A DNA stretch of 64,000 nt from sequence record OP312987.1; one strand, written 5' to 3'. The position numbers were made by a program, and so were the translations under genes. Origin of the DNA: Escherichia phage vB_EcoS_Uz-1. Shown here in pieces: positions 1-60,354 of the stretch; within the stretch, counting starts at the first letter, position 1, and every line of letters starts with the position of its first letter. Below the pieces are notes generated by a model. It did not search any database and was not told where the DNA came from. It worked only from the letters and a program-made list of their open reading frames with translations.

Positions 1-2015
1 TCTATTTTTCTGTAGGTGTAGACTTGGGTGGATACAAAGTCATTTATGATAAGACTACTCAACGCGCTTACTCATTGCCCGTACTTCCAGTAGGAACCAC
101 TGCTGTAAGTCTTAGTGAACATGCAGTCTTGGTTCATTCGGCAGGTACAGTTGATTTGGGTGAACTGGCTGCTGCACGTAGAGAGTTTGTATGCTTATCT
201 GATTCATTTACTACGGGCTTAGTAGTAAATACTCGAAATGAGCTTTTGATGCATAATGGTATTGGTTATACCTACTTAGGTTCTCTACCCGTAACTATTG
301 TTGAAGGGGCCAACCCTGTTGGCAACACGGATTGGAAGTCCCAAACGGATCCTAATTTGCGTGCTCAGTTGGCATCTCAGGATGGTATGACTTTAATTGG
401 TAGTGTACCCGACGTAACTGCCCTGGCTTCTGTTGGAGCAACAGTAGGGTCTAGTATAATGCTAGATTCGTACTCAGGCTCTTCCGTTGGTGGGGGTATT
501 ATGATTGCGGTTCCTAATACTACTCCTGTAGATGAAGTTGTAACTTTCACCGGTGCAGGAGTGGTCTGGAAGCGTAAGTTCTTTGATGGCACTGCTACGG
601 TATACGATGCAGGTTATACTGGTACGGGGGATATTGCCCCATTCATTAACAAGGTAAACTCTGCCGGTTACGATTGTCTTGTACCTACATCAGGGACTAT
701 TAGTACACCTATCTTACTGGATGTAGCTAAGGGGGCTTTAGTAGGAGCCAATAAGTGTACCCTTACGGAAATGGAAGGTGTAACAGGAGAGTATTATTTA
801 ACCGTAATCAATTCTAATACAGATTACACAGCCCGTGATGCCATTAATGCTACTGCCCTATTAACAGGTATTTCCTTTGTAGGTAAAGGTACTCGAAAGA
901 TGTGCTTGGGCAGTAGTACTGGAGGGGAGATAGCAGAATTACGTATATCTAACTGCGGGTTTATATCTACCGCAGGTATTGAGTTTAAAGATAATGCATA
1001 CCGTATCCTGTTTGATAAGTGCACCATTTCTCGCAGTTTTACTAACTCTGTAATCTTTAATTCCCCGGTTAATGCTGGTGAGGTTATAAAATTCAACCAC
1101 TGCTGGATGGTTGATAATGGGGGTCCATTTACATTTGAGAATGGGCAGTTCATCTTTGATTCATGCTCATTACCAGCAGGTAAAAAGGCAGGCTACTTCG
1201 ATCCAGTAGTGGCATTAAGTGATAATGCTACCTTAGTATTTGCTAACGGTAATATTGAGTATCAACCCGGGCAGAGTTTTGTAGGCTTTACTGTGAGTGG
1301 AAGCTCACGCCTCAGTATTAAAGATTCTACTATTCTGCTTCCAGAAGGCTACAGTACAGTGCCTATTGTTAGTAATGGTGATGGGGTAGTTAGTTTAAAT
1401 AACTGCTCATTGCCCCTCTACGGTAACACAACGATTGCTACTGGATTTGCTACAAGACAGTTGATAGGCGGTGCAAGTAAAAAAGTAATGTCCAGAGGGT
1501 GCTTCCCTCGTGCAGGATTTATTACAACTAACTGGAATCTAGGGAGCATTGTAAGCCCATATATTAATAGTATTAGCAATGGCTCAGGACAGTTTGGAAA
1601 TACATCTAACTGGACACTCTCGCAAACTGGAACAGGTGCTGTCACTGCTACTACAGCAAATGATGTTCCTAACGATTTAATGTTTACAACTTCTTTTGTT
1701 TTATCTGTACCATCAGCAGATGCAGCAGCTAACTTCACTCAAACAATCATTGATTGTGAACCGGGTCGTTATTTTCAGTTTGGTTTTTGGGCTAAAAATA
1801 CAACAACCACCTTGGCGTCAATTAGATTCCTGGACCAGCAAGGAAATGCTGTTGCGGATTCCATAGGATATATCATTCCAGTAGTAAACACGTTCAACTT
1901 TTACGCTTTGGTGGATTGCGTTCCTCCAGGAGCTTACAAAGCTGAAATTAATTTTAATGTTTCTTCAGTTGTTGGAGGCGTCGTAATACACAATGCAGTT
2001 TATGGATTGATTTAA
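1..2015 (+). CDS. tail fiber/tailspike-like protein with beta-helix-type repeats; 5' end probably outside the window
   Basis: ORF track 24..2015 begins with TTG and the frame stays open to the window edge. Repetitive G/N/S/T-rich segments resemble a right-handed beta-helix. Sits at the distal end of the late structural module. Confidence 0.5.
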   Translation, partial: YFSVGVDLGGYKVIYDKTTQRAYSLPVLPVGTTAVSLSEHAVLVHSAGTVDLGELAAARREFVCLSDSFTTGLVVNTRNELLMHNGIGYTYLGSLPVTIVEGANPVGNTDWKSQTDPNLRAQLASQDGMTLIGSVPDVTALASVGATVGSSIMLDSYSGSSVGGGIMIAVPNTTPVDEVVTFTGAGVVWKRKFFDGTATVYDAGYTGTGDIAPFINKVNSAGYDCLVPTSGTISTPILLDVAKGALVGANKCTLTEMEGVTGEYYLTVINSNTDYTARDAINATALLTGISFVGKGTRKMCLGSSTGGEIAELRISNCGFISTAGIEFKDNAYRILFDKCTISRSFTNSVIFNSPVNAGEVIKFNHCWMVDNGGPFTFENGQFIFDSCSLPAGKKAGYFDPVVALSDNATLVFANGNIEYQPGQSFVGFTVSGSSRLSIKDSTILLPEGYSTVPIVSNGDGVVSLNNCSLPLYGNTTIATGFATRQLIGGASKKVMSRGCFPRAGFITTNWNLGSIVSPYINSISNGSGQFGNTSNWTLSQTGTGAVTATTANDVPNDLMFTTSFVLSVPSADAAANFTQTIIDCEPGRYFQFGFWAKNTTTTLASIRFLDQQGNAVADSIGYIIPVVNTFNFYALVDCVPPGAYKAEINFNVSSVVGGVVIHNAVYGLI

Positions 2016-2023
2016 TTAAAACT

Positions 2024-2047
2024 AAGGCCCAAACTGGGCCTTTTCTT
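2024..2047. terminator. bidirectional intrinsic terminator between convergent genes
   Basis: Hairpin AGGCCCA-AAC-TGGGCCT followed by TTTTCTT, lying between the stop at 2015 (+) and the stop at 2046 (-). Confidence 0.5.
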
Positions 2048-2672
2048 ATATAGAGTTTACTGTTTGCATTACCTCAACCGATACTGCTGTTAGGGTAATT
2101 ACTTGCCCGGATAAGTTAAACATACCCAACTGAATACCATCTACCATGAAAGGGTCAGATGAACCAAGTGTGTAAGTAGCTAGTACGTTATCCCTATTAG
2201 CTATGTCCGTACCCTGTACCTTAACACTAGTGTCTGAACCAACTACTGTAGTTCCATTGGTTCGTCTTGTTTGTGTTCTCCATTCTCTTGCTGTACCAGC
2301 ACCTCCTGTAATAGTTCCTGATATACGTACACTGAACATTACCTGGGTATTCCTGGTTCTAATAGGGAATTTAAGATTACCTCCTTCAATTGTTAATGCT
2401 GCTGTACCCCCAGGTGATTTAGTTATCCATGGTAATGAAAAGTAATTGAGCCAGGACTGGTCATTTACTACCTGGCTCCCGGTCCATGTATACAAGTCCA
2501 GAAGGAAAGTATCTTCTAACTCTGTTGGTGGGATGGGTAGTAGTTCAGGGGGAAGCTCTGAAACGTTATTAGCAGAAACTATTCGTTCCCCATAGCTTCC
2601 CACGACCAACAAACCACCCTTCATTTTGCACACAACATCCTTACCACTTTGGAAAATATCTTTAATAGACAT
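2046..2672 (-). CDS. hypothetical beta-rich protein encoded opposite to the late module
   Basis: ORF track 2046..2699; the more likely start is the second Met (MSIKDIF) at 2672. Convergent with the tail fiber gene and divergent from the lysis genes. Confidence 0.45.
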   Translation of the reverse strand: MSIKDIFQSGKDVVCKMKGGLLVVGSYGERIVSANNVSELPPELLPIPPTELEDTFLLDLYTWTGSQVVNDQSWLNYFSLPWITKSPGGTAALTIEGGNLKFPIRTRNTQVMFSVRISGTITGGAGTAREWRTQTRRTNGTTVVGSDTSVKVQGTDIANRDNVLATYTLGSSDPFMVDGIQLGMFNLSGQVITLTAVSVEVMQTVNSI

Positions 2673-2796
2673 AGATACCTCGTAGTTGATACCAGACACT
2701 ATGTCTGGATGTACTCCATCATACTAAGTATTATCTAAGAGTCATCTTATGATACGACCCTATTGGGGTTTCTAACTTTACAACTACGGTAATATT

Positions 2797-3126
2797 ATGA
2801 ATGAATCGGGTGAACTGCTCCTAGTCAGACTGGAGGAACGATTGAAGACTCTGTTTGAGAACCATACAAGGGAAAGGCAGGACCGTGAGAAACTGGAGGA
2901 AACTCTGGTGGAACTACGGGATTCAATCAATGACATAGGCAATAGACTGAAAAATGTGGAAGAGAGCATCACTAAGTCTGAACCCACCATTGAAGAGTTC
3001 ATCACCATTAAACATAAGGTTGCTGGTGCTGGGATTTTTGGTAAGTGGGTATGGGCTGGAGCAGGTGCAATTATTGGTGTATTGGCTGCTGCAAGACGGG
3101 AGATATTCGCATGGTTCGCAGGCTAA
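2797..3126 (+). CDS. membrane protein with coiled-coil N-terminus and C-terminal TM helix; holin/antiholin candidate
   Basis: 109-aa ORF with a charged N-terminal half and a G/A-rich hydrophobic C-terminus (AGAGIFGKWVWAGAGAIIGVLAA). Immediately upstream of the holin-like gene and endolysin. Confidence 0.4.
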   Translation: MNESGELLLVRLEERLKTLFENHTRERQDREKLEETLVELRDSINDIGNRLKNVEESITKSEPTIEEFITIKHKVAGAGIFGKWVWAGAGAIIGVLAAARREIFAWFAG

Positions 3127-3371: not shown

Positions 3372-3996
3372 ACAGAAACTTGCTGCTAAAGGTGGTGCAG
3401 TGGGAGGAGTTGTCGCTGCTATCCTGGGGGCAGTGTTCTATATGGAAGGGGGATATGTAAATAATCCCCGTGACCCAGGTGGGGAAACTAATCATGGTAT
3501 TACCCAATCGGTAGCTAAGACTCATAAAGAAGTTCTGGCTACTGAGTACGGTTGGGATGGTTCTATGAAGGGTTTATCTAAAGAGATGGCTGCTGAGATA
3601 TACATTGATGACTACGTACTCAAACCTAACTTCGTAGCCTTCGCTGATATATCCCCTGCTGTAACACATAAGCTGGTAGATGCTGGTGTTAACACTGGTG
3701 TAACCCGTCCGGCTAAGTGGTTACAGTTATCTCTTAATGAAATGTCCCGTGATGGCAAAGACTACCCTAAAATACAGGTTGATGGTAAAGTCGGTACAAG
3801 TACTGTTAATGCATATAAAGCATTACAGAAAAAACGAGGCAAAGTTGCAGCATGTCAGGTAATGATTAAGCTGCTTGATGCTAAACAACTGAACCACTAT
3901 ACCTCATTAAACATGCCAGACTTTACGTATGGTTGGGTAGCTAACCGAATTGGCAATGTGCCACTGGAGGCATGTAATGAAGATGCTAATCTCTAA
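3361..3996 (+). CDS. endolysin, N-acetylmuramidase (GH108-like) with N-terminal signal-anchor (SAR-type)
   Basis: EGGYVNNPRDPGGETNHGIT motif typical of GH108 muramidases. N-terminal G/A-rich hydrophobic segment GGAVGGVVAAILGAVFY. AAGGAAG RBS before ATG 3361. Confidence 0.7.
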   Translation: MKAKQKLAAKGGAVGGVVAAILGAVFYMEGGYVNNPRDPGGETNHGITQSVAKTHKEVLATEYGWDGSMKGLSKEMAAEIYIDDYVLKPNFVAFADISPAVTHKLVDAGVNTGVTRPAKWLQLSLNEMSRDGKDYPKIQVDGKVGTSTVNAYKALQKKRGKVAACQVMIKLLDAKQLNHYTSLNMPDFTYGWVANRIGNVPLEACNEDANL

Positions 3997-4483
3997 AGGT
4001 TGGCCTTATCTTCTGGTGGTGGTCCTTGGGGCCACCATTTACTTTTGGGGTAATTCCAATGGACAGTCTACTGTTCAAAAGAAGTGGGATGCCCAAAAGG
4101 TTGAAGACCAGAAGGCAACGCAAAAACTACAGGATAAATACAATGCTCTCCAAAGAAACCATAGTTATGAAGTCGGGTTACTTACTTCCCGGTTGCAGAC
4201 GGCTGAGAGTAATTACGCAAGTGAGCTTGCTCGCGTTAGCAGTGATTACGACAGCCGGATGCAACAGTCTGAAAGACGAGCATCGGTATATAAACGTCAA
4301 GCCGAAGCCGGAACCCTTGAGTGCAGAAGTCTTGCAAGCCATGCAGCCAGACTCGACAACAGTCTTGAAGAAGGCAGACGTTTGGTTGAAGAACTCCGGG
4401 CAACTGTTAGACTCCGTGACAACCAACTAATTGAGTTGGGTAAACAAATTCAGGCTGACCGTAAACTTTTTGAACAGGAATAA
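3977..4483 (+). CDS. i-spanin (Rz-like): N-terminal TM plus coiled coil
   Basis: Start re-derived at ATG 3977 with GGAGG 6 nt upstream. N-terminal TM ([13 protein letters not shown]) then a long Q/R/E-rich predicted helix. Contains an embedded +1 frame lipoprotein ORF. Confidence 0.6.
4167..4430 (+). CDS. o-spanin (Rz1-like) lipoprotein embedded in the i-spanin gene
   Basis: +1 frame ORF wholly inside the i-spanin. [32 protein letters not shown] reads as a signal peptide with a lipobox-like TAGC. Start taken as ATG 4167 within track ORF 4026..4430. Confidence 0.55.
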   Translation: MKSGYLLPGCRRLRVITQVSLLALAVITTAGCNSLKDEHRYINVKPKPEPLSAEVLQAMQPDSTTVLKKADVWLKNSGQLLDSVTTN

Positions 4484-8370: not shown

Positions 8371-9573
8371 ATGTTAAACTATAACGCCCCAATTGACGGC
8401 CAGAAATCTAGCATTGATGGTGCTGGTTCCGACCAGATGAATACCTATTACTGGCTGAAGAAAGCTATTATTCAGTCTCGTAAAGATCAGTACTTCATGC
8501 CACTGGCTAACACCATTAACATGCCGAAGAACTATGGCAAGACTGTTAAGGTGTATGAGTACGTTCCGCTGCTTGACGATAAGAACATTAACGACCAGGG
8601 TATTGATGCCAACGGTGCTACCATTGTTAATGGTAACCTGTACGGTTCTTCCAGAGACGTTGGTAACATCACCTCTAAACTGCCTCTGCTGACAGAGAAT
8701 GGTGGTCGTGTTAACCGTGTAGGCTTTACTCGTCTGTCTCGTGAAGGTTCCATCCATAAGTTTGGTTTCTTCTACGAATTTACTCAAGAGTCCCTGGACT
8801 TTGATTCTGATGACCAACTGAAAGAACACCTGTCTCGTGAGCTGATGAACGGTGCTGTACAGTTGACTGAAGCTGTTCTCCAGAAAGACCTGTTGGCTGC
8901 TGCTGGTACTGTACTGTATGCAGGTGCTGCTACCTCTGATGCTACCATCACTGGTGAAGGTGCTACCCCGTCTGTAGTTTCTTATAAGAACCTGATGCGT
9001 CTTGACCAGATTCTTACTGAGAACCGTACTCCGACTCAGACTACTATCATCACTGGTTCTAAACTTACTGATACCAAAGTACTCGGTGGTACTCGTGTAA
9101 TGTACGTTGGTTCTGAACTGGTTCCAGAACTGAAAGCGATGAAAGACCTGTTCGGTAACAAAGCATTCATCGAGGTTCAGCACTATGCTGATGCTGGTAC
9201 TCTGATGAATGGTGAGATTGGTTGTATCGACAAGTTCCGTATTATCCAGGTTCCTGAGATGCTGCATTGGGCAGGTGCTGGTGCTCAGGTTACTACTAAC
9301 CCGGGTTATCGTTCTTCTATGGTTAGTGGTCAAGAACACTACGACGTATTCCCAATGTTGGTAGTTGGTGATGACTCCTTCTCTACTATTGGCTTCCAGA
9401 CTGATGGTAAGTCTGTTAAGTTCTCCATCATGACTAAGATGCCTGGTCGAGAAACTGCTGACCGTAATGACCCGTATGGTGAGACTGGCTTCAGTTCCAT
9501 CAAGTGGTACTACGGTATCCTGGTTAAACGTCCGGAACGTCTGGCTCTGATTAAGACTGTTGCTCCTCTGTAA
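8371..9573 (+). CDS. major capsid protein (N4 gp56-like by size and position)
   Basis: 400-aa ORF after the scaffold-like gene, followed by a strong intrinsic terminator; size matches N4-like major capsid proteins. Confidence 0.6.
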
Positions 9574-11196: not shown

Positions 11197-13850
11197 ATGG
11201 GCTTATTCAGTGGGAAGACCAAAGTATACGTAGCATCCTCTGTCTATAACATGGCAGGGGATATACATAAGCGTCCAAACTATATGAAGACTGTAGTCAT
11301 CGGTAAGATTGTTGCTGATACAGGATTCACTATGGCAGATACTATCTCTGATAGTTATCTGAATGGACCGGGTATTCGTATGCGACTGTTCTCCAGCTGG
11401 AGTAAGAACCACTATGACTCAGAAGTTGGTATGGCAGGAGCTTCATTAGGTGTGCTGGCAAAGATTGACCCTACTGTTATAGAGGGTCAAATTACCCCAC
11501 CTGCTGGAGAATCAGTCTATGTTCAGGCAGCAGAGATTGGCTTTGCTGACTTTGAGCAATGGTGTGACCAGTATCTTTATGAGAATGCTCCAAGTCGAAT
11601 CATGGAACGATTCGACATAGACATTGATGAAGATACCAATGAAATTACTATGACCTCCCTTGATGGAGGTTCTACCATTACATTCACACCTACTAACTTT
11701 GAACCAGGTGCTTTATATCTCTATGCTGATTACTCATTCTATAAGTCCCCGGCTACCAATCCACCGGTAGTAGGACCGACTACTGTCTATGATGATGAAG
11801 ATGACTTACCGTCTACTTTGTTGTGGACTACCATCTCAAGTGATACGACAGCTAATACAACCAATCTTACTAAGACTATACAGACCCATTCTGTTTACTC
11901 TGATGGTAGGCCGGATGAAGACAGTACTGTTACTGAACCAAGTGTGGATAACTGGAACTCTTATGTTAAGGTTTACCGTAGAGGATTCACTGAAAAGCCT
12001 GATGACGTAACTGTAGTTGTATCTGACAGAGTAATGACTCATACAAAGTTTGGTGAGGTTCAATCCAGTACTACTGTAACTACCAATGTTGTTAATTTAG
12101 GTGGTGGTGTTACTCGCACTGACACAATCACCACAACTACAGAGACACTGGTTCGTAAGTACTCATCCCAGACTACTCGTACTGATACTGAGATGACTGC
12201 TGTTGGTACACCTAAGATGCTTATCTATAAGCAGAACTCTGGCAACGTTGCACTTGATTCCCTGTTTGAGACTGAAGCTACTGATAATCGATTCTACCAT
12301 TTATTCCAATCAGGAATGATAAACAATGGGTAGAGAATGACCCAATCTATCCTCACTGTAAGAAGGCACTCTATAAAGCTACTGGTGGTAAGCTCAATAA
12401 AGTAGTGACGGAGCTTAAGAAGAATGACGACATAGGTGATATTCAATACATCTATGGTACATTTGGTGTATCTCTTAATACTCCAGAAGATACGGCTAAG
12501 GAATACATCTACCGTTTCTTTCAGATGGCTACTGAAGCATTCCCACCTGACCCAACTTACCCTACATTGGAAGCAGTGATTGCAGGTTATCAGGCAGCAA
12601 ATGATGCAGTCGATGCATACGTAGAATGGTGGAACAGGCAGGAAGGTCAGATTGTTGGAACACCTCCATCTCTTCCAGAATACCCTGTTATACCTAAGCG
12701 AGAGTTTAGGATACATAGTAATAAGCAGTATAAGTACGACATGACCATTGGTTGGAACTACGTGTCTGAAACTACCCATTCCGGTGAAGCATGGGCTGGT
12801 GCTAAGCAAGGACAACTTCGAGCCAGATATGCAGGAGATATAACTCTTACCCGTAAGAACATACGTACTGCTAGTACCTACTGCTATGCTAACAAACTAG
12901 AAGTTACCACTACGTTTTATTCTATGCAGGAATACGAGTTACTTTGGCAGGATGGTAATGACACTTACCGTAAACTTAGAGTACTGGGTCTAAATCACAA
13001 CAATAGGGTATATAAGAATAAATCAGTAAGTATTGATGTTGCCGAAGCAATGGGAGATGCAGAGGAGAGTGGGTTCATTATCCCACTACACACTAATATT
13101 TACCGTTCAATGTCACTGGTTCGTAGTACACAACTGTCTACTGCCTGTTCCTACTTAGTGATGAACTCATACAAGAAAGTTAAGCAGAAATGGTATCAAA
13201 CCTCTGCTTTTAAGATTGTGGTCGTTGTAGTTGCTGTCGTTGTATCTGTATTCACTATGGGTACGGGTGGTGCAGGTATACTTGGGGCATATGGTGCAGT
13301 TGGTGCATCTCTGGGTTTTGTTGGATTAGCTGCTGTAATAGTTGGTGCTGTAGCAAACGCCATAGCTGCAATGATTCTGGTATCCATTATTACTAAAGTA
13401 TCTACTTCACTGTTCGGTGATAAGCTAGGTTTTATCATTGCTGCTATTGCCTCAATGGTAGCCATGAACGTTGGTACTGCTTTGTCTACTGGTACATCCT
13501 TATCCTCCCTAGCTGGTGAAATGATGAATGCTCAAAACATCATGCAACTTACCAGTTCGGTAGGTAATGGTATTAGTCAGTATATTAATGCATCCACGGC
13601 TGCTACTATTCAGAAAGCAGAGAATGTAATGCAGCAGTACAATACTGATATGATGGCAATCAATAAGCAGTATGAAGAAATGTTTGGTACTGCTGGGCAG
13701 GGTGTAATTGACCCTATGCAATTTGTGTCAATGGAGTCGTTGGATTCTTTCCTCTCACGTACTCTTATGACTGGTTCGGATATAGCTGACATGTCTTTAA
13801 ACATGGTTGGCAGCTACTCTGATATGACTCTTAATACAGACCTTGTTTAA
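11197..13850 (+). CDS. large virion protein with a long G/A-rich hydrophobic segment; apparently split by a frameshift near 12290-12400
   Basis: Track ORFs 11197..12333 and 12405..13850 (GTG start). The downstream frame is open and protein-like for about 39 codons before its annotated start, overlapping the end of the upstream ORF. Combined length about 884 aa. Hydrophobic glycine-zipper-like stretch encoded around 13196-13470. Confidence 0.4.
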
Positions 13851-37282: not shown

Positions 37283-37587
37283 TATTCCCCCTTGGGAATC
37301 ATGTTTGCCTGGAACTCTGGTTCAGACATCAGACCCAGGTTGTTAATGGACAGATAAACAATGTCTTTCAAATCAACCGAAGTGTCGAAACGCTGGTCCA
37401 GACTAATTTTAAGAGAGTGATTGGCACGGGCCAAATCTTTATAGGTCACATGAGGCTCGTCAGTGAGCAGCATTGTGTTCATAGTAAGCAGGGAGCCATC
37501 ATCAGCTTTGGGAAGCTGGAAGATTACCTGTGCTGCTACCATCCAATGATATTTTCTGACAACGGTTTCTTTAGTACTTTTAGTCAT
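37282..37587 (-). CDS. hypothetical protein
   Basis: 101-aa ORF directly downstream of the DNA polymerase gene. Confidence 0.4.
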   Translation of the reverse strand: MTKSTKETVVRKYHWMVAAQVIFQLPKADDGSLLTMNTMLLTDEPHVTYKDLARANHSLKISLDQRFDTSVDLKDIVYLSINNLGLMSEPEFQANMIPKGE

Positions 37588-40050
37588 GCGAATGCCTTTT
37601 GAATTATTTGATGAACTTCATCTGGGGTAGCGTGATTTGGAATTTCAATCTCGTTAGCCCACGTTGGATAAAACAAGGATAGTTCCCCACCCAAACCAAC
37701 TTCTGGATGAGCAATATCAGGATGGTCTTGCCAGTTAACGGCTTCAACCAAGTGCTTGTTCGTATACTGTAAGGTATCCATGTTGTCACGGATCATGAAG
37801 TATTGGGCATCATGAATGTGAATACAAGGACGGATATCTAACCTGAACTCACTGGTTCTGACTTTACGCATAAACTCTGAGCCAGCACGGTTATTAAGTA
37901 GACACCAGCTTTGACCTAATGCATTACCAGCAGTTCTGCCTTCAGCTTCTGCTTCATACGGAGTCTTACATGTCCCACGTAATACCTGAGCCAGTAAAGG
38001 AGTACGCACTCTTAAACCAAATGCAGCAGTTACATAACCAGTCTTAGCAGCTTCGTCTAGCTTAGCCTGAACCCACAAATCACTAACTACATAGAGATCG
38101 TGATAACGTTTCTCCGTAGTTTTAGCCTTCTCTTCGGAGAAGCCACAGTTTTCATTAAGCCCATGTAAGTACCACCATAGGTAAGCAGGAAGGTTGGAGC
38201 CTTCGAGTCACTACGTAATGATTTGTACTTATGCTGAATGGAATTAATGGATTCTACTGTGTCTTCTATGTCTGGCATCTGCTCACCAAAATAAGCATAT
38301 GCACGGAGACTGTGACCATCATAGCCATCGGTATATACCTTAAGCTTCTGCGGGTCTTTAGTAGTTAAAGCTGAGATACGGTCTTCAAGGCTTGCAAAGT
38401 CCAGTCCACAAAATATCCAACCTGGTGGTGCTTCGAAGCATTTCTTAATCTTCTTGGCGTATTTGGAACCACTGGGGATGGTCTGTAGATTAGGCTCGGA
38501 CGCTGAGAGACGTCCTGATACTGTGCCTCCAAATTGAGGTTACCGAACAGGTAGTGCCATCCATCTGGTCCAGGTTGTGCATTACGGAAAGCTGGGATGA
38601 ATGAAGTGATGATCTTATCCACCAGCTTATAGTCGATAAGTGCATTGAGCAGTTCCTTAACATCTTCACTCTGCGTATGTGTACGCAGTGCTTTAATAGT
38701 GTCACCGTCAGTAGCAGGTTGCTTGCTCTTAGTAAGACCAAGAACCGGTAAGCCGATGTAGTCAAATAACAATTTCTGTAATTGTGGACCAGAGTTAGGA
38801 TTAAACTCTATGTCACAATCAGCCAACGTTACCTGCTTCTTCTTAAGCTTGGCATTCTTATCGTCTACCCATTCCTGACGAAGCATCAGGGTGAAGTTCT
38901 TCATGAGCTTAGACTCACGAATAGTTTTCAGAGCCTGGTTCCTGTCAGTTTCCATTTCTTCAGCTACTTGGTTAACGGTTTCCATATTCATGGGCATACC
39001 GGTTAACTGCATCTGAATAATGTCTTCGCAGGCTGGTTTAAAGATGTTGTTATAAACATCTAGTTGGTTATCAGCTACCAGGGTATCCCAGTGTTTCTCG
39101 TAGGTGTACCAGGTACACAAACCATCAATAAGGTTGTATCGTAACAGTTGCTCATTAGGAATGAGACGAATGTCTTTAATATCATCCTGAGCATAGTTAC
39201 CAGCATACTCCTGAGCCTGCTCTTTTAGACTAAGGTGATTACCAGCACAACTGTTAGTAGCTAAATAAGTAATTAATTTAGTACAGTCCCAGTTACGCAG
39301 CATGATGTCCATGCCATGCAGTAAGCCTCCAGTATCAATCAGGTTATCCATGAATAACTGATAAATAAGTATGTACACATCATAACTAATGTTGTGATAC
39401 ATCTGCCGTTGGGTGTACTTAATGAAGAACTCACGGAGAAGATTTCGAACAATATCATTACGATTGATTCTCCCATAAGGTGCTTCAGTAGCTCCCCTAA
39501 TTGGCTCGTAATCCACATTAAAGGCTATGCCCTGTGTCTTACTCCAACAGAACGTAATTGTTCCTATACCTGCGTTATAGTGCTTTAAACCGAATGCCTC
39601 GATGTCTATAGCCAGAGGCTTATTCATCTCAAGCAACTGGTCTAGCCAGGCTTTAATCTTTTCTGGAGTATCTGGATAGGCTTCAAACTCAATGATTCCC
39701 TGACCTGGTTCAGCATACTGCCCACGTATGTGGTTTAGTAATGCATCCATACCCTGAGCAATTTTGGCTCTCACTACAGGTGGGTCATAAAAGACCTGTC
39801 TGTAACTAGGCGTATAGATAACTTTCTGTTTACCCCATACTGAATCACAAACATAGCCGAGATTAGCCTCTGCTTTAGCCTCTTTAGTCAGTATTTTGAA
39901 GTAATCAGAATCGGTGCAGATAATGTACTGGGTCTCTGCATCATCCAGTACTTGCTGCAATTCCTGCTTTATGAACTCCTTAATCTCTCTTGCTGGGGTC
40001 TTCTTCTTGCCCGGAGCAGAGTGAAGTTCAATAAAGATGAAGTCTTCCAT
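37584..40050 (-). CDS. DNA polymerase, family A, with 3'-5' exonuclease domain; at least two apparent frameshifts
   Basis: Fragments 38365..40050, 38087..38278 and 37584..38078. Exo motif LAIDIEAF; FNPNSGPQLQKLLF; motif A (GLDFASLEDRISA) readable only in a shifted frame after a break near 38531-38546; motif B (KAPTFLLTYGG); motif C (IHDAQYF). Second break at an A-run (ATGAAAACTGTGG) near 38143-38155. Confidence 0.7.
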
Positions 40051-60109: not shown

Positions 60110-60354
60110 TTAAAAGTACTCCATGGTATGGACTCCAAGTAATTAATTTTGTAAATAATCTTACTTCTTATTTCTCCACCAACATCTTGTACATGGATTA
60201 GGTTTAACCTTTGTGCTTGGGTTATAGTAGCTGCAAGAGTTCTCCCCATAATATTTGATATTTCTATAAAAGATTTATTGGATTCTACTAGTATCTTTAA
60301 ATTAGTATTATCTAAGTTACTCCACTCTTTAGAATGATTTGCTGGCTTATCCAT
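60106..60354 (-). CDS. hypothetical early protein
   Basis: 82-aa ORF. Confidence 0.4.
   Translation of the reverse strand: MDKPANHSKEWSNLDNTNLKILVESNKSFIEISNIMGRTLAATITQAQRLNLIHVQDVGGEIRSKIIYKINYLESIPWSTFK

What the first reader, a model, noticed from the sequence alone, without database searches (positions are those of the whole stretch)
2024..2796. Single opposite-strand gene embedded in the late structural module
A 209-aa beta-rich protein gene is encoded on the minus strand between the tail fiber gene (convergent, sharing a bidirectional terminator) and the lysis cassette (divergent, 125-bp intergenic region). All other genes across 27 kb of late module are on the plus strand. Such islands are often morons or host-range-related acquisitions.
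Basis: seen in the sequence. Interest (0 to 1): 0.35.

Follow-up and report, generated by a model that had tools for sequence, protein, structure and literature searches.

The report
Optional head-fibre-like knob protein gene
The lone backward-facing gene in this N4-like coliphage's structural block is a real but dispensable gene whose protein joins the capsid-attachment segment of a known head decoration protein to a TNF-like knob, so it is most likely an optional head fibre and not a tail-fibre helper.

Summary
The window is a Gamaleyavirus (G7C-like Schitoviridae), 98% identical to phage Bp4. ORF 2046-2672 (minus strand, 208 aa) is Bp4 orf14, the only opposite-strand gene in the roughly 27-kb late block. 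It sits between a bidirectional terminator and a 124-bp divergent spacer. It is under purifying selection (dN/dS 0.07-0.17).

The protein has two modules. Residues 1-45 are homologous to the N-terminus of Shigella phage B2 decoration protein gp45 (PDB 9d82; hhalign 98%, E 9e-14). That is the part of gp45 modelled on the B2 capsid. Residues 55-208 form a TNF-like jelly roll (Sf6 needle knob, PRD1 P5, TNF-like lectins). In other proteins this domain always lies at the extreme C-terminus.

In Ithacavirus and Triduovirus the homologue directly follows the head-fibre gene. In one N4-like metagenomic contig the same locus carries the same N-module fused to an Sf6-type knob.

Within Gamaleyavirus the gene is patchy: about 11 of 81 records are near full-length, and the others carry deletion remnants. 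A 3' fragment travelled with a tailspike gene into Ackermannviridae.

Best reading (about 0.45): an optional trimeric head fibre or adhesin. No virion evidence exists, and the B2 virion mass-spectrometry table omits the homologue. Modest interest; a new variant of a known kind.

The parts
2046..2672 (-). CDS of 208 aa (Bp4 orf14 homologue; PHROG 17779), the gene in question
   Evidence: dN/dS 0.07-0.17
2538..2672 (-). N-module, aa 1-45, ending in the conserved ELP motif. It is homologous to the capsid-ordered N-terminal segment of B2 decoration protein gp45.
   Evidence: phmmer against PDB 9d82_J E 0.0034; profile E 4e-8; hhalign 98.1%, E 9e-14; top Foldseek hits 9d82_M/J, which have only 44/47 modelled residues
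2511..2537 (-). Pro-rich flexible linker, aa 46-54 (PPELLPIPPTELED region). Its length varies among homologues.
   Evidence: pLDDT below 50 at residues 46-53; indels in alignment A1
2049..2510 (-). C-terminal TNF-like jelly-roll knob, aa 55-208, with the invariant motif GGAGTxREWRTQTRR
   Evidence: Foldseek PDB hits: Sf6/HS1 needle knob, ExsFA, PRD1 P5, lectins PLTL and BC2L-C; BFVD hits; the domain always lies at the extreme C-terminus of 170-1457-aa proteins
2024..2042 (.). Bidirectional intrinsic terminator shared with the tailspike gene
   Evidence: retained in all relatives, and in Ackermannviridae carrying the fragment
2673..2796 (.). 124-bp divergent intergenic region, about 95% conserved even in Gamaleyaviruses that lack the gene
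2692..2708 (.). Perfect palindrome CCAGACA-CTA-TGTCTGG (7-bp stem, 3-nt loop); function unknown
   Evidence: does not fit the N4 vRNAP promoter rules
2718..2745 (-). Weak sigma-70-like promoter candidate for the ORF (ATGACT-16-TATGAT), 9 of 12 matches, not above chance
2678..2681 (-). Shine-Dalgarno GAGG, 5 nt before the ATG
   Evidence: read from the sequence
1..2015 (+). Tailspike gene (gp63.1-type, 5' end cut by the window), convergent neighbour
2797..3126 (+). gp63-like gene, the first gene of the divergent lysis cassette

Best explanation
The gene encodes an optional head fibre, that is, a capsid-displayed adhesin built from two exchangeable modules.

Proposed mechanism (inferred):
1. The N-terminal roughly 45 residues dock on the T=9 capsid in the way the homologous segment of B2 decoration protein gp45 does.
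2. A short proline-rich linker follows.
3. The C-terminal TNF-like jelly roll trimerises and projects outward as a knob. It probably binds a conserved carbohydrate or surface ligand and so helps virions stick to cells or matrix.
4. The protein is not needed to build an infectious particle, which explains why most Gamaleyaviruses have deleted the gene.

Shown here: the gene is real and under purifying selection. The N-module homology is established. The N-module corresponds to the part of gp45 that is modelled on the B2 capsid. The C-domain fold class is TNF-like. The knob has been swapped at the same locus. The gene has been lost repeatedly.

Inferred only: binding to this phage's capsid, trimerisation, ligand binding, and late expression.
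For: 1. N-module homology to B2 Dec gp45.
- phmmer E 0.0034; profile E 4e-8; hhalign 98.1%, E 9e-14.
- B2's own homologue gp46 against gp45: 49% identity over 45 aa, E 1e-14.

2. gp45 is a capsid decoration homotrimer by cryo-EM (PMC11654681). The 9d82 chains hold only 44-47 of its 99 residues. These align with the N-module at 39-41% identity and are its top Foldseek hits. So the capsid-ordered part is the N-module.

3. The C-terminal tip of gp45 (aa 65-99, PF11133) is shared with head fibres of unrelated phages. The N-module is not. This fits a lineage-specific anchor carrying a generic tip. In phi29 gp8.5 the N-terminal base also contacts the capsid, and the fibre is dispensable (PMC7602432).

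4. The capsid is similar. The window's MCP is 60% identical to the B2 MCP.

5. In B2 and TR2 the homologue lies immediately after the head-fibre gene and in the same orientation.

6. Knob swap. N4-like contig L017 has, at the same locus, the same N-module (66% identical to Jgk1's) fused to a PF16532 Sf6-type knob.

7. The C-domain has a TNF-like fold. It is always C-terminal in fibre-like proteins with collagen, Mtd_N or tail-repeat regions.

8. The C-domain has head-module links elsewhere.
- In Uetakevirus PAT1 its gene lies between the portal gene and the protease and MCP genes.
- In Klebsiella phage PA45-9 its gene follows a paralogue that shares its N-terminus but ends in a Hoc-like Ig domain.

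9. The protein has no signal peptide or transmembrane segment (read from the sequence). Natural deletions match the dispensability known for head fibres.
Against: - No proteomic or structural evidence places this protein, or any full-length homologue, on a virion. The B2 virion mass-spectrometry table lists gp45 but not gp46.
- This phage already encodes the Ig-like gp17-type decoration protein (Bp4 orf76). The B2 paper says that the Ig-like Dec of Moo19 and gp45 occupy the same capsid axes. In N4, gp17 domain I sits on every quasi-3-fold axis. The docking site may therefore be occupied.
- The N-module structural match is weak (TM 0.35-0.39, E 0.03; pLDDT 68).
- The C-domain is more conserved across genera than the N-module (dN about 0.25 against 0.58). 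That is unusual for a host-specific adhesin.
Confidence: 0.45

Rival explanations
1. It is a non-virion accessory protein made inside the infected cell, a moron-like cargo gene. It might act on a host or phage glycan or protein, or against a host defence. Under this reading the shared N-module is an oligomerisation or partner-binding element and not a capsid anchor.
For: - Opposite polarity to the late genes, the same as early and middle genes.
- Its own terminator and a possible own promoter.
- Patchy distribution.
- B2 gp46 is not in the virion mass-spectrometry table.
- The docking site is possibly taken by gp17.
Against: - Both modules belong to families otherwise seen in virion surface proteins.
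- In B2 and TR2 the homologue sits in one co-oriented gene block with the lysis cassette and the head-fibre gene.
- No match to defence or anti-defence models or to any enzyme family.
- gp17, a proven decoration protein, is also encoded with early/middle polarity, so polarity says little.
Confidence: 0.25
2. It is a tail-associated knob or auxiliary receptor-binding protein, as in the 'tail needle knob' annotation of phage UE-M3. On this view it attaches to the tail or tailspike complex and influences host range.
For: - Its best solved-structure matches are the Sf6 and HS1 tail needle knobs.
- The C-domain ends many tail-fibre-like proteins. In Aeromonas Chaseviridae its gene closes the tail-fibre cluster.
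- The gene abuts the tailspike gene and travels with it.
Against: - No PF16532 match and no gp26-type coiled-coil needle.
- The N-terminus is homologous to a capsid protein segment, not to any tail adaptor.
- The gene is kept next to at least three unrelated tailspike types: the window/Bp4 type, a K5 lyase type and the nithesis type. It is also deleted in ECBP1, which has the same tailspike as the window. So it is not tied to one spike.
- Cryo-EM tails of Moo19 and B2 show no such component, although the distal plug density there is unresolved.
Confidence: 0.15
3. In Gamaleyavirus it is a decaying relic. It would have been inherited or acquired from an Ithacavirus/Triduovirus-like ancestor whose capsid it fitted. 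It would now be functionless and simply not yet deleted in the Bp4 lineage.
For: - Most relatives have deleted it. VTCCBPA_322 has a split copy.
- There is a competing gp17 decoration protein.
Against: - dN/dS is 0.07-0.17 in both modules across copies with dS 0.15-0.37.
- RBS, start codon and terminator are intact.
Confidence: 0.1

Closest known systems
Shigella phage B2 decoration / 'head fiber' protein gp45 (PDB 9d82; Ithacavirus)
   Same: The N-terminal roughly 45 residues are homologous (39-49% identity; hhalign 98%). In B2 the two genes are neighbours. The phage family is the same and the MCPs are 60% identical.
   Different: gp45 is 99 aa and ends in a phi29-type head-fibre tip (PF11133). 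This protein ends in a 150-aa TNF-like knob. gp45 is proven to be on the capsid, and this protein is not.
Sf6/HS1 tail needle knob (PF16532; PDB 3rwn, 4k6b)
   Same: TNF-like jelly-roll fold. These are its best solved-structure matches (Foldseek E 4.5e-6, TM 0.57 by target). A genuine PF16532 knob replaces this domain at the same locus in contig L017.
   Different: No sequence-level PF16532 match. No coiled-coil needle. It is not encoded among tail genes.
phi29 head fibre gp8.5
   Same: The proposed logic is the same: an N-terminal capsid base, a distal trimeric tip, dispensability, and a role in adhesion.
   Different: There is no homology to its beta-tulip base or helical shaft, and PF11133 is not matched.
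Ig-like decoration proteins T4 Hoc / N4 gp17
   Same: They are non-essential capsid surface proteins thought to mediate adhesion. gp17 is also encoded with non-late polarity.
   Different: The fold is unrelated and the proteins are monomeric. This phage has a gp17 homologue as well.
TNF-like lectins (Burkholderia BC2L-C N-terminal domain, Photorhabdus PLTL) and PRD1 spike P5
   Same: Same fold class (Foldseek E 1e-4 to 1e-3). All are trimeric, and the lectins bind sugars at protomer interfaces.
   Different: There is no sequence similarity. Sugar binding was not tested here.

Membership tests
B2 gp45-type capsid decoration / head-fibre proteins | N-terminal capsid-bound segment (about 45 aa ending in ELP) homologous to gp45 | tested here: met
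   the modelled residues of 9d82 chains (44/47) align to it
B2 gp45-type capsid decoration / head-fibre proteins | Physically present on the capsid | not testable with these tools
   No virion data exist for this protein. The B2 mass-spectrometry table lists gp45 but not the homologue gp46.
B2 gp45-type capsid decoration / head-fibre proteins | C-terminal phi29-type head-fibre tip (PF11133) | tested here: not met
   No PF11133 hit; the position is taken by a TNF-like domain
Sf6-type tail needle knob (PF16532) | Sequence match to PF16532 | tested here: not met
   0 Pfam families at E <= 0.1. P0184, encoded at the equivalent locus, does match (E 1.9e-32).
Sf6-type tail needle knob (PF16532) | TNF-like jelly-roll fold | tested here: met
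   Foldseek 3rwn_A E 4.5e-6, TM 0.57 by target, on a model with pLDDT 79.5
Sf6-type tail needle knob (PF16532) | Carried on a gp26-type coiled-coil tail needle | tested here: not met
   The N-terminus is a 45-aa alpha/beta module plus a Pro-rich linker
Moron (independently transcribed cargo gene inserted between conserved genes) | Own terminator and own promoter | tested here: inconclusive
   The terminator is clear. The promoter is only a 9/12 consensus match, no better than shuffled sequence.
Moron (independently transcribed cargo gene inserted between conserved genes) | Presence/absence among close relatives caused by insertion | tested here: not met
   Relatives lacking it carry deletion remnants of its 3' end. 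The polymorphism is therefore loss, not gain.
Tail fibre chaperone / assembly protein | Homology to Tfa, gp38, gp57 or S74 intramolecular chaperone families | tested here: not met
   No such hits in Pfam, PHROGs or NCBIfam
N4 vRNAP hairpin promoter (for the 2692-2708 palindrome) | GC-rich heptamer centred on the loop, G:C closing pair, -11 purine, -10G and -8G; location at the left genome end | tested here: not met
   The stem closes with A:T, the centre is AT-rich, and the site lies in the late region (against the rules in PMC4496689)

The most novel reading that the evidence does not exclude
Schitoviridae may carry a plug-and-play capsid display system. A roughly 45-aa anchor docks at the quasi-3-fold sites and can carry interchangeable trimeric tips: a phi29-type tip, an Sf6-type knob, or this TNF-like knob. 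In Gamaleyaviruses the knob-bearing version would compete with, or substitute for, Ig-like gp17 at a fraction of sites. That would give the capsid a lectin-like second adhesin that measurably changes adsorption or retention on particular hosts or mucosal surfaces. The conserved palindrome and leader would control its dose.
Probability: 0.15. Interest if true: 0.6.

Novelty: new variant of a known kind. Interest (0 to 1): 0.4.

Why it matters
If the protein does sit on the capsid, it gives N4-like phages a second, swappable surface adhesin besides the tailspikes. The roughly 45-residue anchor would then be a natural and very small tag for displaying foreign domains on T=9 Schitoviridae capsids. 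That would be useful for phage engineering and for understanding non-tail contributions to adsorption.

It would also assign a role to PHROG 17779. That family is currently 'hypothetical', or mislabelled 'protease' or 'tail needle knob', in dozens of therapeutic-candidate coliphage and Salmonella phage genomes.

Independently of function, the shared deletion allele and the fragment carried into Ackermannviridae mark the exact right-hand boundary of the tailspike-exchange cassette in these phages.

Tried and rejected
- Pfam, NCBIfam and PADLOC scans of the protein gave nothing.
- The 'protease' label on Salmonella phage homologues has no support. No protease domain was found. In PAT1 a true protease is merely the neighbouring gene.
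- Promoter search. The sigma-70 scan found one weak minus-strand match, not above the shuffled expectation.
- A 12-mer search for motifs shared with other intergenic regions gave only chance-level hits. The best hit, at 60304, lies inside an ORF and does not extend.
- The palindrome is unique in the window. It is not an N4 vRNAP-type promoter and is not conserved in N4.
- I looked for concerted evolution between the paralogous N-modules of gp45-type and gp46-type proteins within one phage, which would have signalled a shared binding partner. Orthologues turned out more alike than paralogues, so the test is uninformative.
- Literature searches found no proteomics or transcriptomics for any phage with the intact gene.
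- The supplement of the B2 paper does not mention gp46.
- GC content does not mark the gene as foreign.

Full report
**Identity of the window.** The first 5 kb are 98% identical to Escherichia phages Bp4 and PD38. These belong to Gamaleyavirus (Enquatrovirinae, Schitoviridae), the G7C-like branch of the N4-like phages. Window position 1 corresponds to Bp4 position 8584.

**The observation.**
- ORF 2046-2672 on the minus strand has an ATG start preceded by GAGG and encodes 208 aa. It is Bp4 orf14, annotated 'hypothetical protein'.
- It converges on the gp63.1-type tailspike gene, whose stop is at 2015.
- An 8-bp GC-rich stem at 2024-2042 has T-runs on both strands.
- The gene diverges across 124 bp from the gp63-like gene that opens the lysis cassette. 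That cassette comprises holin, GH108 endolysin, and Rz with an embedded Rz1.
- In the Bp4 annotation it is the only minus-strand CDS from orf8 to the virion RNA polymerase gene orf31. That block is window 1 to about 27085.

**It is a real gene.**
- It matches PHROG 17779 end to end (E 5e-116).
- It has 39 close homologues in a 5.8-billion-protein collection.
- Pairwise dN/dS is 0.07-0.17 against copies in UE-M3, nithesis and pSb-1, with dS 0.15-0.37. Both halves of the protein are constrained.

**Two modules.** The alignment of homologues and the AlphaFold2 model (pLDDT 79.5) show three parts:
- a small alpha/beta N-terminal module, aa 1-45, ending in a conserved ELP;
- a low-confidence, indel-rich, proline-rich linker, aa 46-54;
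- an all-beta C-terminal domain, aa 55-208, with an invariant GGAGTxREWRTQTRR stretch.

**The N-module.**
- The only solved structure with sequence similarity is chain J of PDB 9d82, 'B2 Dec Gp45' (E 0.0034 for the single sequence; E 4e-8 for the family profile).
- A profile-profile comparison with the gp45 family gives 98.1% probability, E 9e-14, over 46 columns.
- gp45 is the 99-aa capsid decoration homotrimer of Shigella phage B2 (Ithacavirus, Schitoviridae), seen by cryo-EM and found in virions by mass spectrometry (PMC11654681).
- B2 also has a full-length homologue of the protein studied here, gp46. It is encoded immediately after gp45, and its first 45 residues are 49% identical to those of gp45.
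- Triduovirus TR2 has the same pair of genes.
- The Pfam 'phi29 head fibre' match of gp45 covers only its C-terminal 45 residues. That tip recurs in head fibres of many unrelated phages, whereas the N-module does not.
- A model of the N-module alone has as its two best Foldseek hits 9d82_M and 9d82_J. These chains hold coordinates for only 44 and 47 of the 99 residues and align at 39-41% identity. The segment of gp45 that is ordered on the B2 capsid is therefore the segment shared with this protein.
- The structural score itself is weak (TM 0.35-0.39). The argument rests on sequence homology plus the length of the modelled chains.
- The window's major capsid protein is 60% identical to that of B2.

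**The C-domain.**
- Foldseek against the PDB returns trimeric TNF-like jelly rolls. These are the Sf6 and HS1 tail needle knobs (E 4.5e-6), the exosporium protein ExsFA, PRD1 spike P5, the TNF-like lectins PLTL and BC2L-C, and TNF-family cytokines.
- The viral library returns knob-ended and collagen-like proteins.
- An exhaustive profile search of 1.84 billion representatives found 160 proteins. In the listed full-length ones (170-1457 aa) the domain reaches to within about ten residues of the C-terminus, except for two multi-stretch hits (P0117, P0139).
- The N-terminal parts of the long proteins include collagen repeats, Mtd_N, phage tail repeats, a GDSL esterase and a carbohydrate-binding module.
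- The domain is thus a fibre-tip module.
- In Aeromonas Chaseviridae its gene closes the tail-fibre cluster.
- In the epsilon15-like Salmonella phage PAT1 its gene lies between the portal gene and the prohead protease and MCP genes.
- In Klebsiella phage PA45-9 its gene follows a paralogue that shares its N-terminal roughly 80 residues but ends in a Hoc-like Ig decoration domain. That arrangement parallels the gp45/gp46 pair.

**Knob swap at the same locus.** The representative search also found P0184. It carries the same N-module (66% identical to that of phage Jgk1) fused to a bona fide PF16532 Sf6-type knob. Its contig is N4-like: the adaptor is 68% identical to Bp4's, and a gp63-like gene lies divergently upstream. 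The gene sits in the same place, convergent on a tailspike gene. Anchor and tip are therefore exchanged as modules.

**Distribution.**
- Full-length copies occur in Bp4, PD38, nithesis, UE-M3, UE-M6, UE-S5a, UE-S5b and pSb-1.
- VTCCBPA_322 has a split copy, and Jgk1 carries a divergent allele.
- Copies also occur in Salmonella and Shigella phages of Ithacavirus and Triduovirus.
- That is about 11 of roughly 81 Gamaleyavirus-like records.
- ECBP1 has the same tailspike as the window, and ZQ2 has a different one. Both share one identical 535-bp deletion (window about 2150-2684). It removes the RBS, the start codon and codons 1-174.
- St11Ph5 keeps only the last roughly 8 codons. N4 has no such gene.
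- The polymorphism is therefore repeated loss of a resident gene, and the gene is dispensable.
- The intact gene sits next to at least three unrelated tailspike types.

**Interpretation.** The most economical reading is an optional head fibre. It would consist of a capsid anchor, a linker and a trimeric, probably lectin-like knob. The logic resembles phi29 gp8.5, whose N-terminal base contacts the capsid and which is dispensable and aids attachment (PMC7602432).

The weaknesses are real.
- No data place the protein on any virion.
- The B2 mass-spectrometry table lists gp45 but not gp46.
- This phage also encodes the Ig-like gp17-type decoration protein.
- The B2 paper states that the Ig-like Dec of Moo19 and gp45 occupy the same capsid axes. 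In N4, gp17 domain I sits on every quasi-3-fold axis. The site may therefore be contested.

I put the head-fibre model at about 0.45. The rivals are an intracellular accessory protein at 0.25, a tail-associated knob at 0.15 and a decaying relic at 0.1.

**Expression.**
- The gene has the polarity of N4 early and middle transcripts, whereas late transcripts run the other way (PMC4496689).
- The proven decoration gene gp17 has the same polarity.
- In B2 and TR2 the homologue is co-oriented with the lysis and head-fibre genes.
- Polarity is therefore uninformative.
- The spacer holds one weak sigma-70-like match on the minus strand.
- It also holds a perfect 7-bp/3-nt palindrome at 2692-2708. The palindrome is unique in the window, is conserved even where the gene is deleted, is absent from N4, and does not fit the vRNAP promoter rules.
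- As RNA, part of the palindrome can pair instead with the start-codon region and bury the SD and AUG (MFE -18 kcal/mol, z -2.3). Its role is unexplained.

**Comparison with what is known.**
- The protein shares a defining segment with the gp45-type decoration proteins but lacks their tip.
- It shares a fold, but no sequence-family membership and no needle, with Sf6-type knobs.
- It is neither a phi29-type head fibre nor a chaperone.
- It is not an inserted moron.
- The literature held here does not discuss it.
- I rate it a new variant of a known kind, namely capsid fibres or decoration proteins with adhesin tips, and of modest interest.

Noticed in passing
L005:6001-8581 (Escherichia phage A221, ON862890.1), compared with window 2017-2321 and L013:693-2990: An Ackermannviridae phage carries a tailspike 95% identical over all 765 aa to that of Gamaleyavirus 'nithesis'. 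Convergently after it come the same terminator and the last roughly 80 codons of the ORF studied here (92% aa identity). Similar fragments occur in RPN242, PC3, PH4, LHE287, SKML-39, fGh-Ecl02, YX22 and CAU_YEP3. This indicates cross-family transfer of a tailspike cassette, probably from Gamaleyavirus to Ackermannviridae, since the fragment is a passenger.
   Followed up: partly
window 2692-2708 and 2660-2725: The perfect palindrome CCAGACAcTAtGTCTGG is conserved in Gamaleyaviruses whether or not the ORF is present. On the ORF's mRNA it can alternatively pair with the CUAUGUCU around the start codon and hide the SD and AUG (MFE -18 kcal/mol, z -2.3). Its function is unknown.
   Followed up: partly
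window 2718-2723 (minus) and 2748-2753 (plus): Two identical -10-like hexamers TATGAT lie back to back, 24 bp apart, in the divergent spacer. They may be paired divergent promoters for the ORF and the gp63/lysis operon. This was read from the sequence; only the minus-strand one was flagged by the scan.
   Followed up: no
L019:3185-4450 (Klebsiella phage PA45-9): Two adjacent genes share an N-terminal roughly 80-aa module. One ends in a Hoc-like Ig head-decoration domain and the other in the same TNF-like domain as the ORF studied here. This is a second, unrelated example of a shared anchor with alternative tips.
   Followed up: partly
window 4143-4430 (+), inside the Rz gene 3950-4483: An embedded o-spanin (Rz1) frame has a lipoprotein-like signal ending ...ITTAGC. 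It is annotated in St11Ph5 (gp60.1) but not in Bp4, whose spanin annotation is a short fragment.
   Followed up: no
L016:1511-2163 (phage VTCCBPA_322): The homologue is annotated as two CDS, and tblastn matches it in two pieces. This is either a pseudogene in the making or a sequencing error.
   Followed up: no
L009:5986-6624 and other Salmonella phage homologues (TR2, S5; P0020, P0033): These homologues are annotated 'protease', and UE-M3 and UE-S5b annotate theirs as 'tail needle knob'. Neither label is supported by family searches. In PAT1 a true prohead protease is simply the next gene.
   Followed up: yes
L010 / L012 (Bp4 annotation), corresponding to window about 11200-13850 and 37500-40050: In the Bp4 annotation several conserved N4-like genes are listed as two or more CDS (gp53, DNA polymerase gp39, primase gp43, rIIA). 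HNH endonuclease genes are annotated at other positions in the replication region (orf42, orf66/orf67). Whether the window shares these splits was not checked.
   Followed up: no
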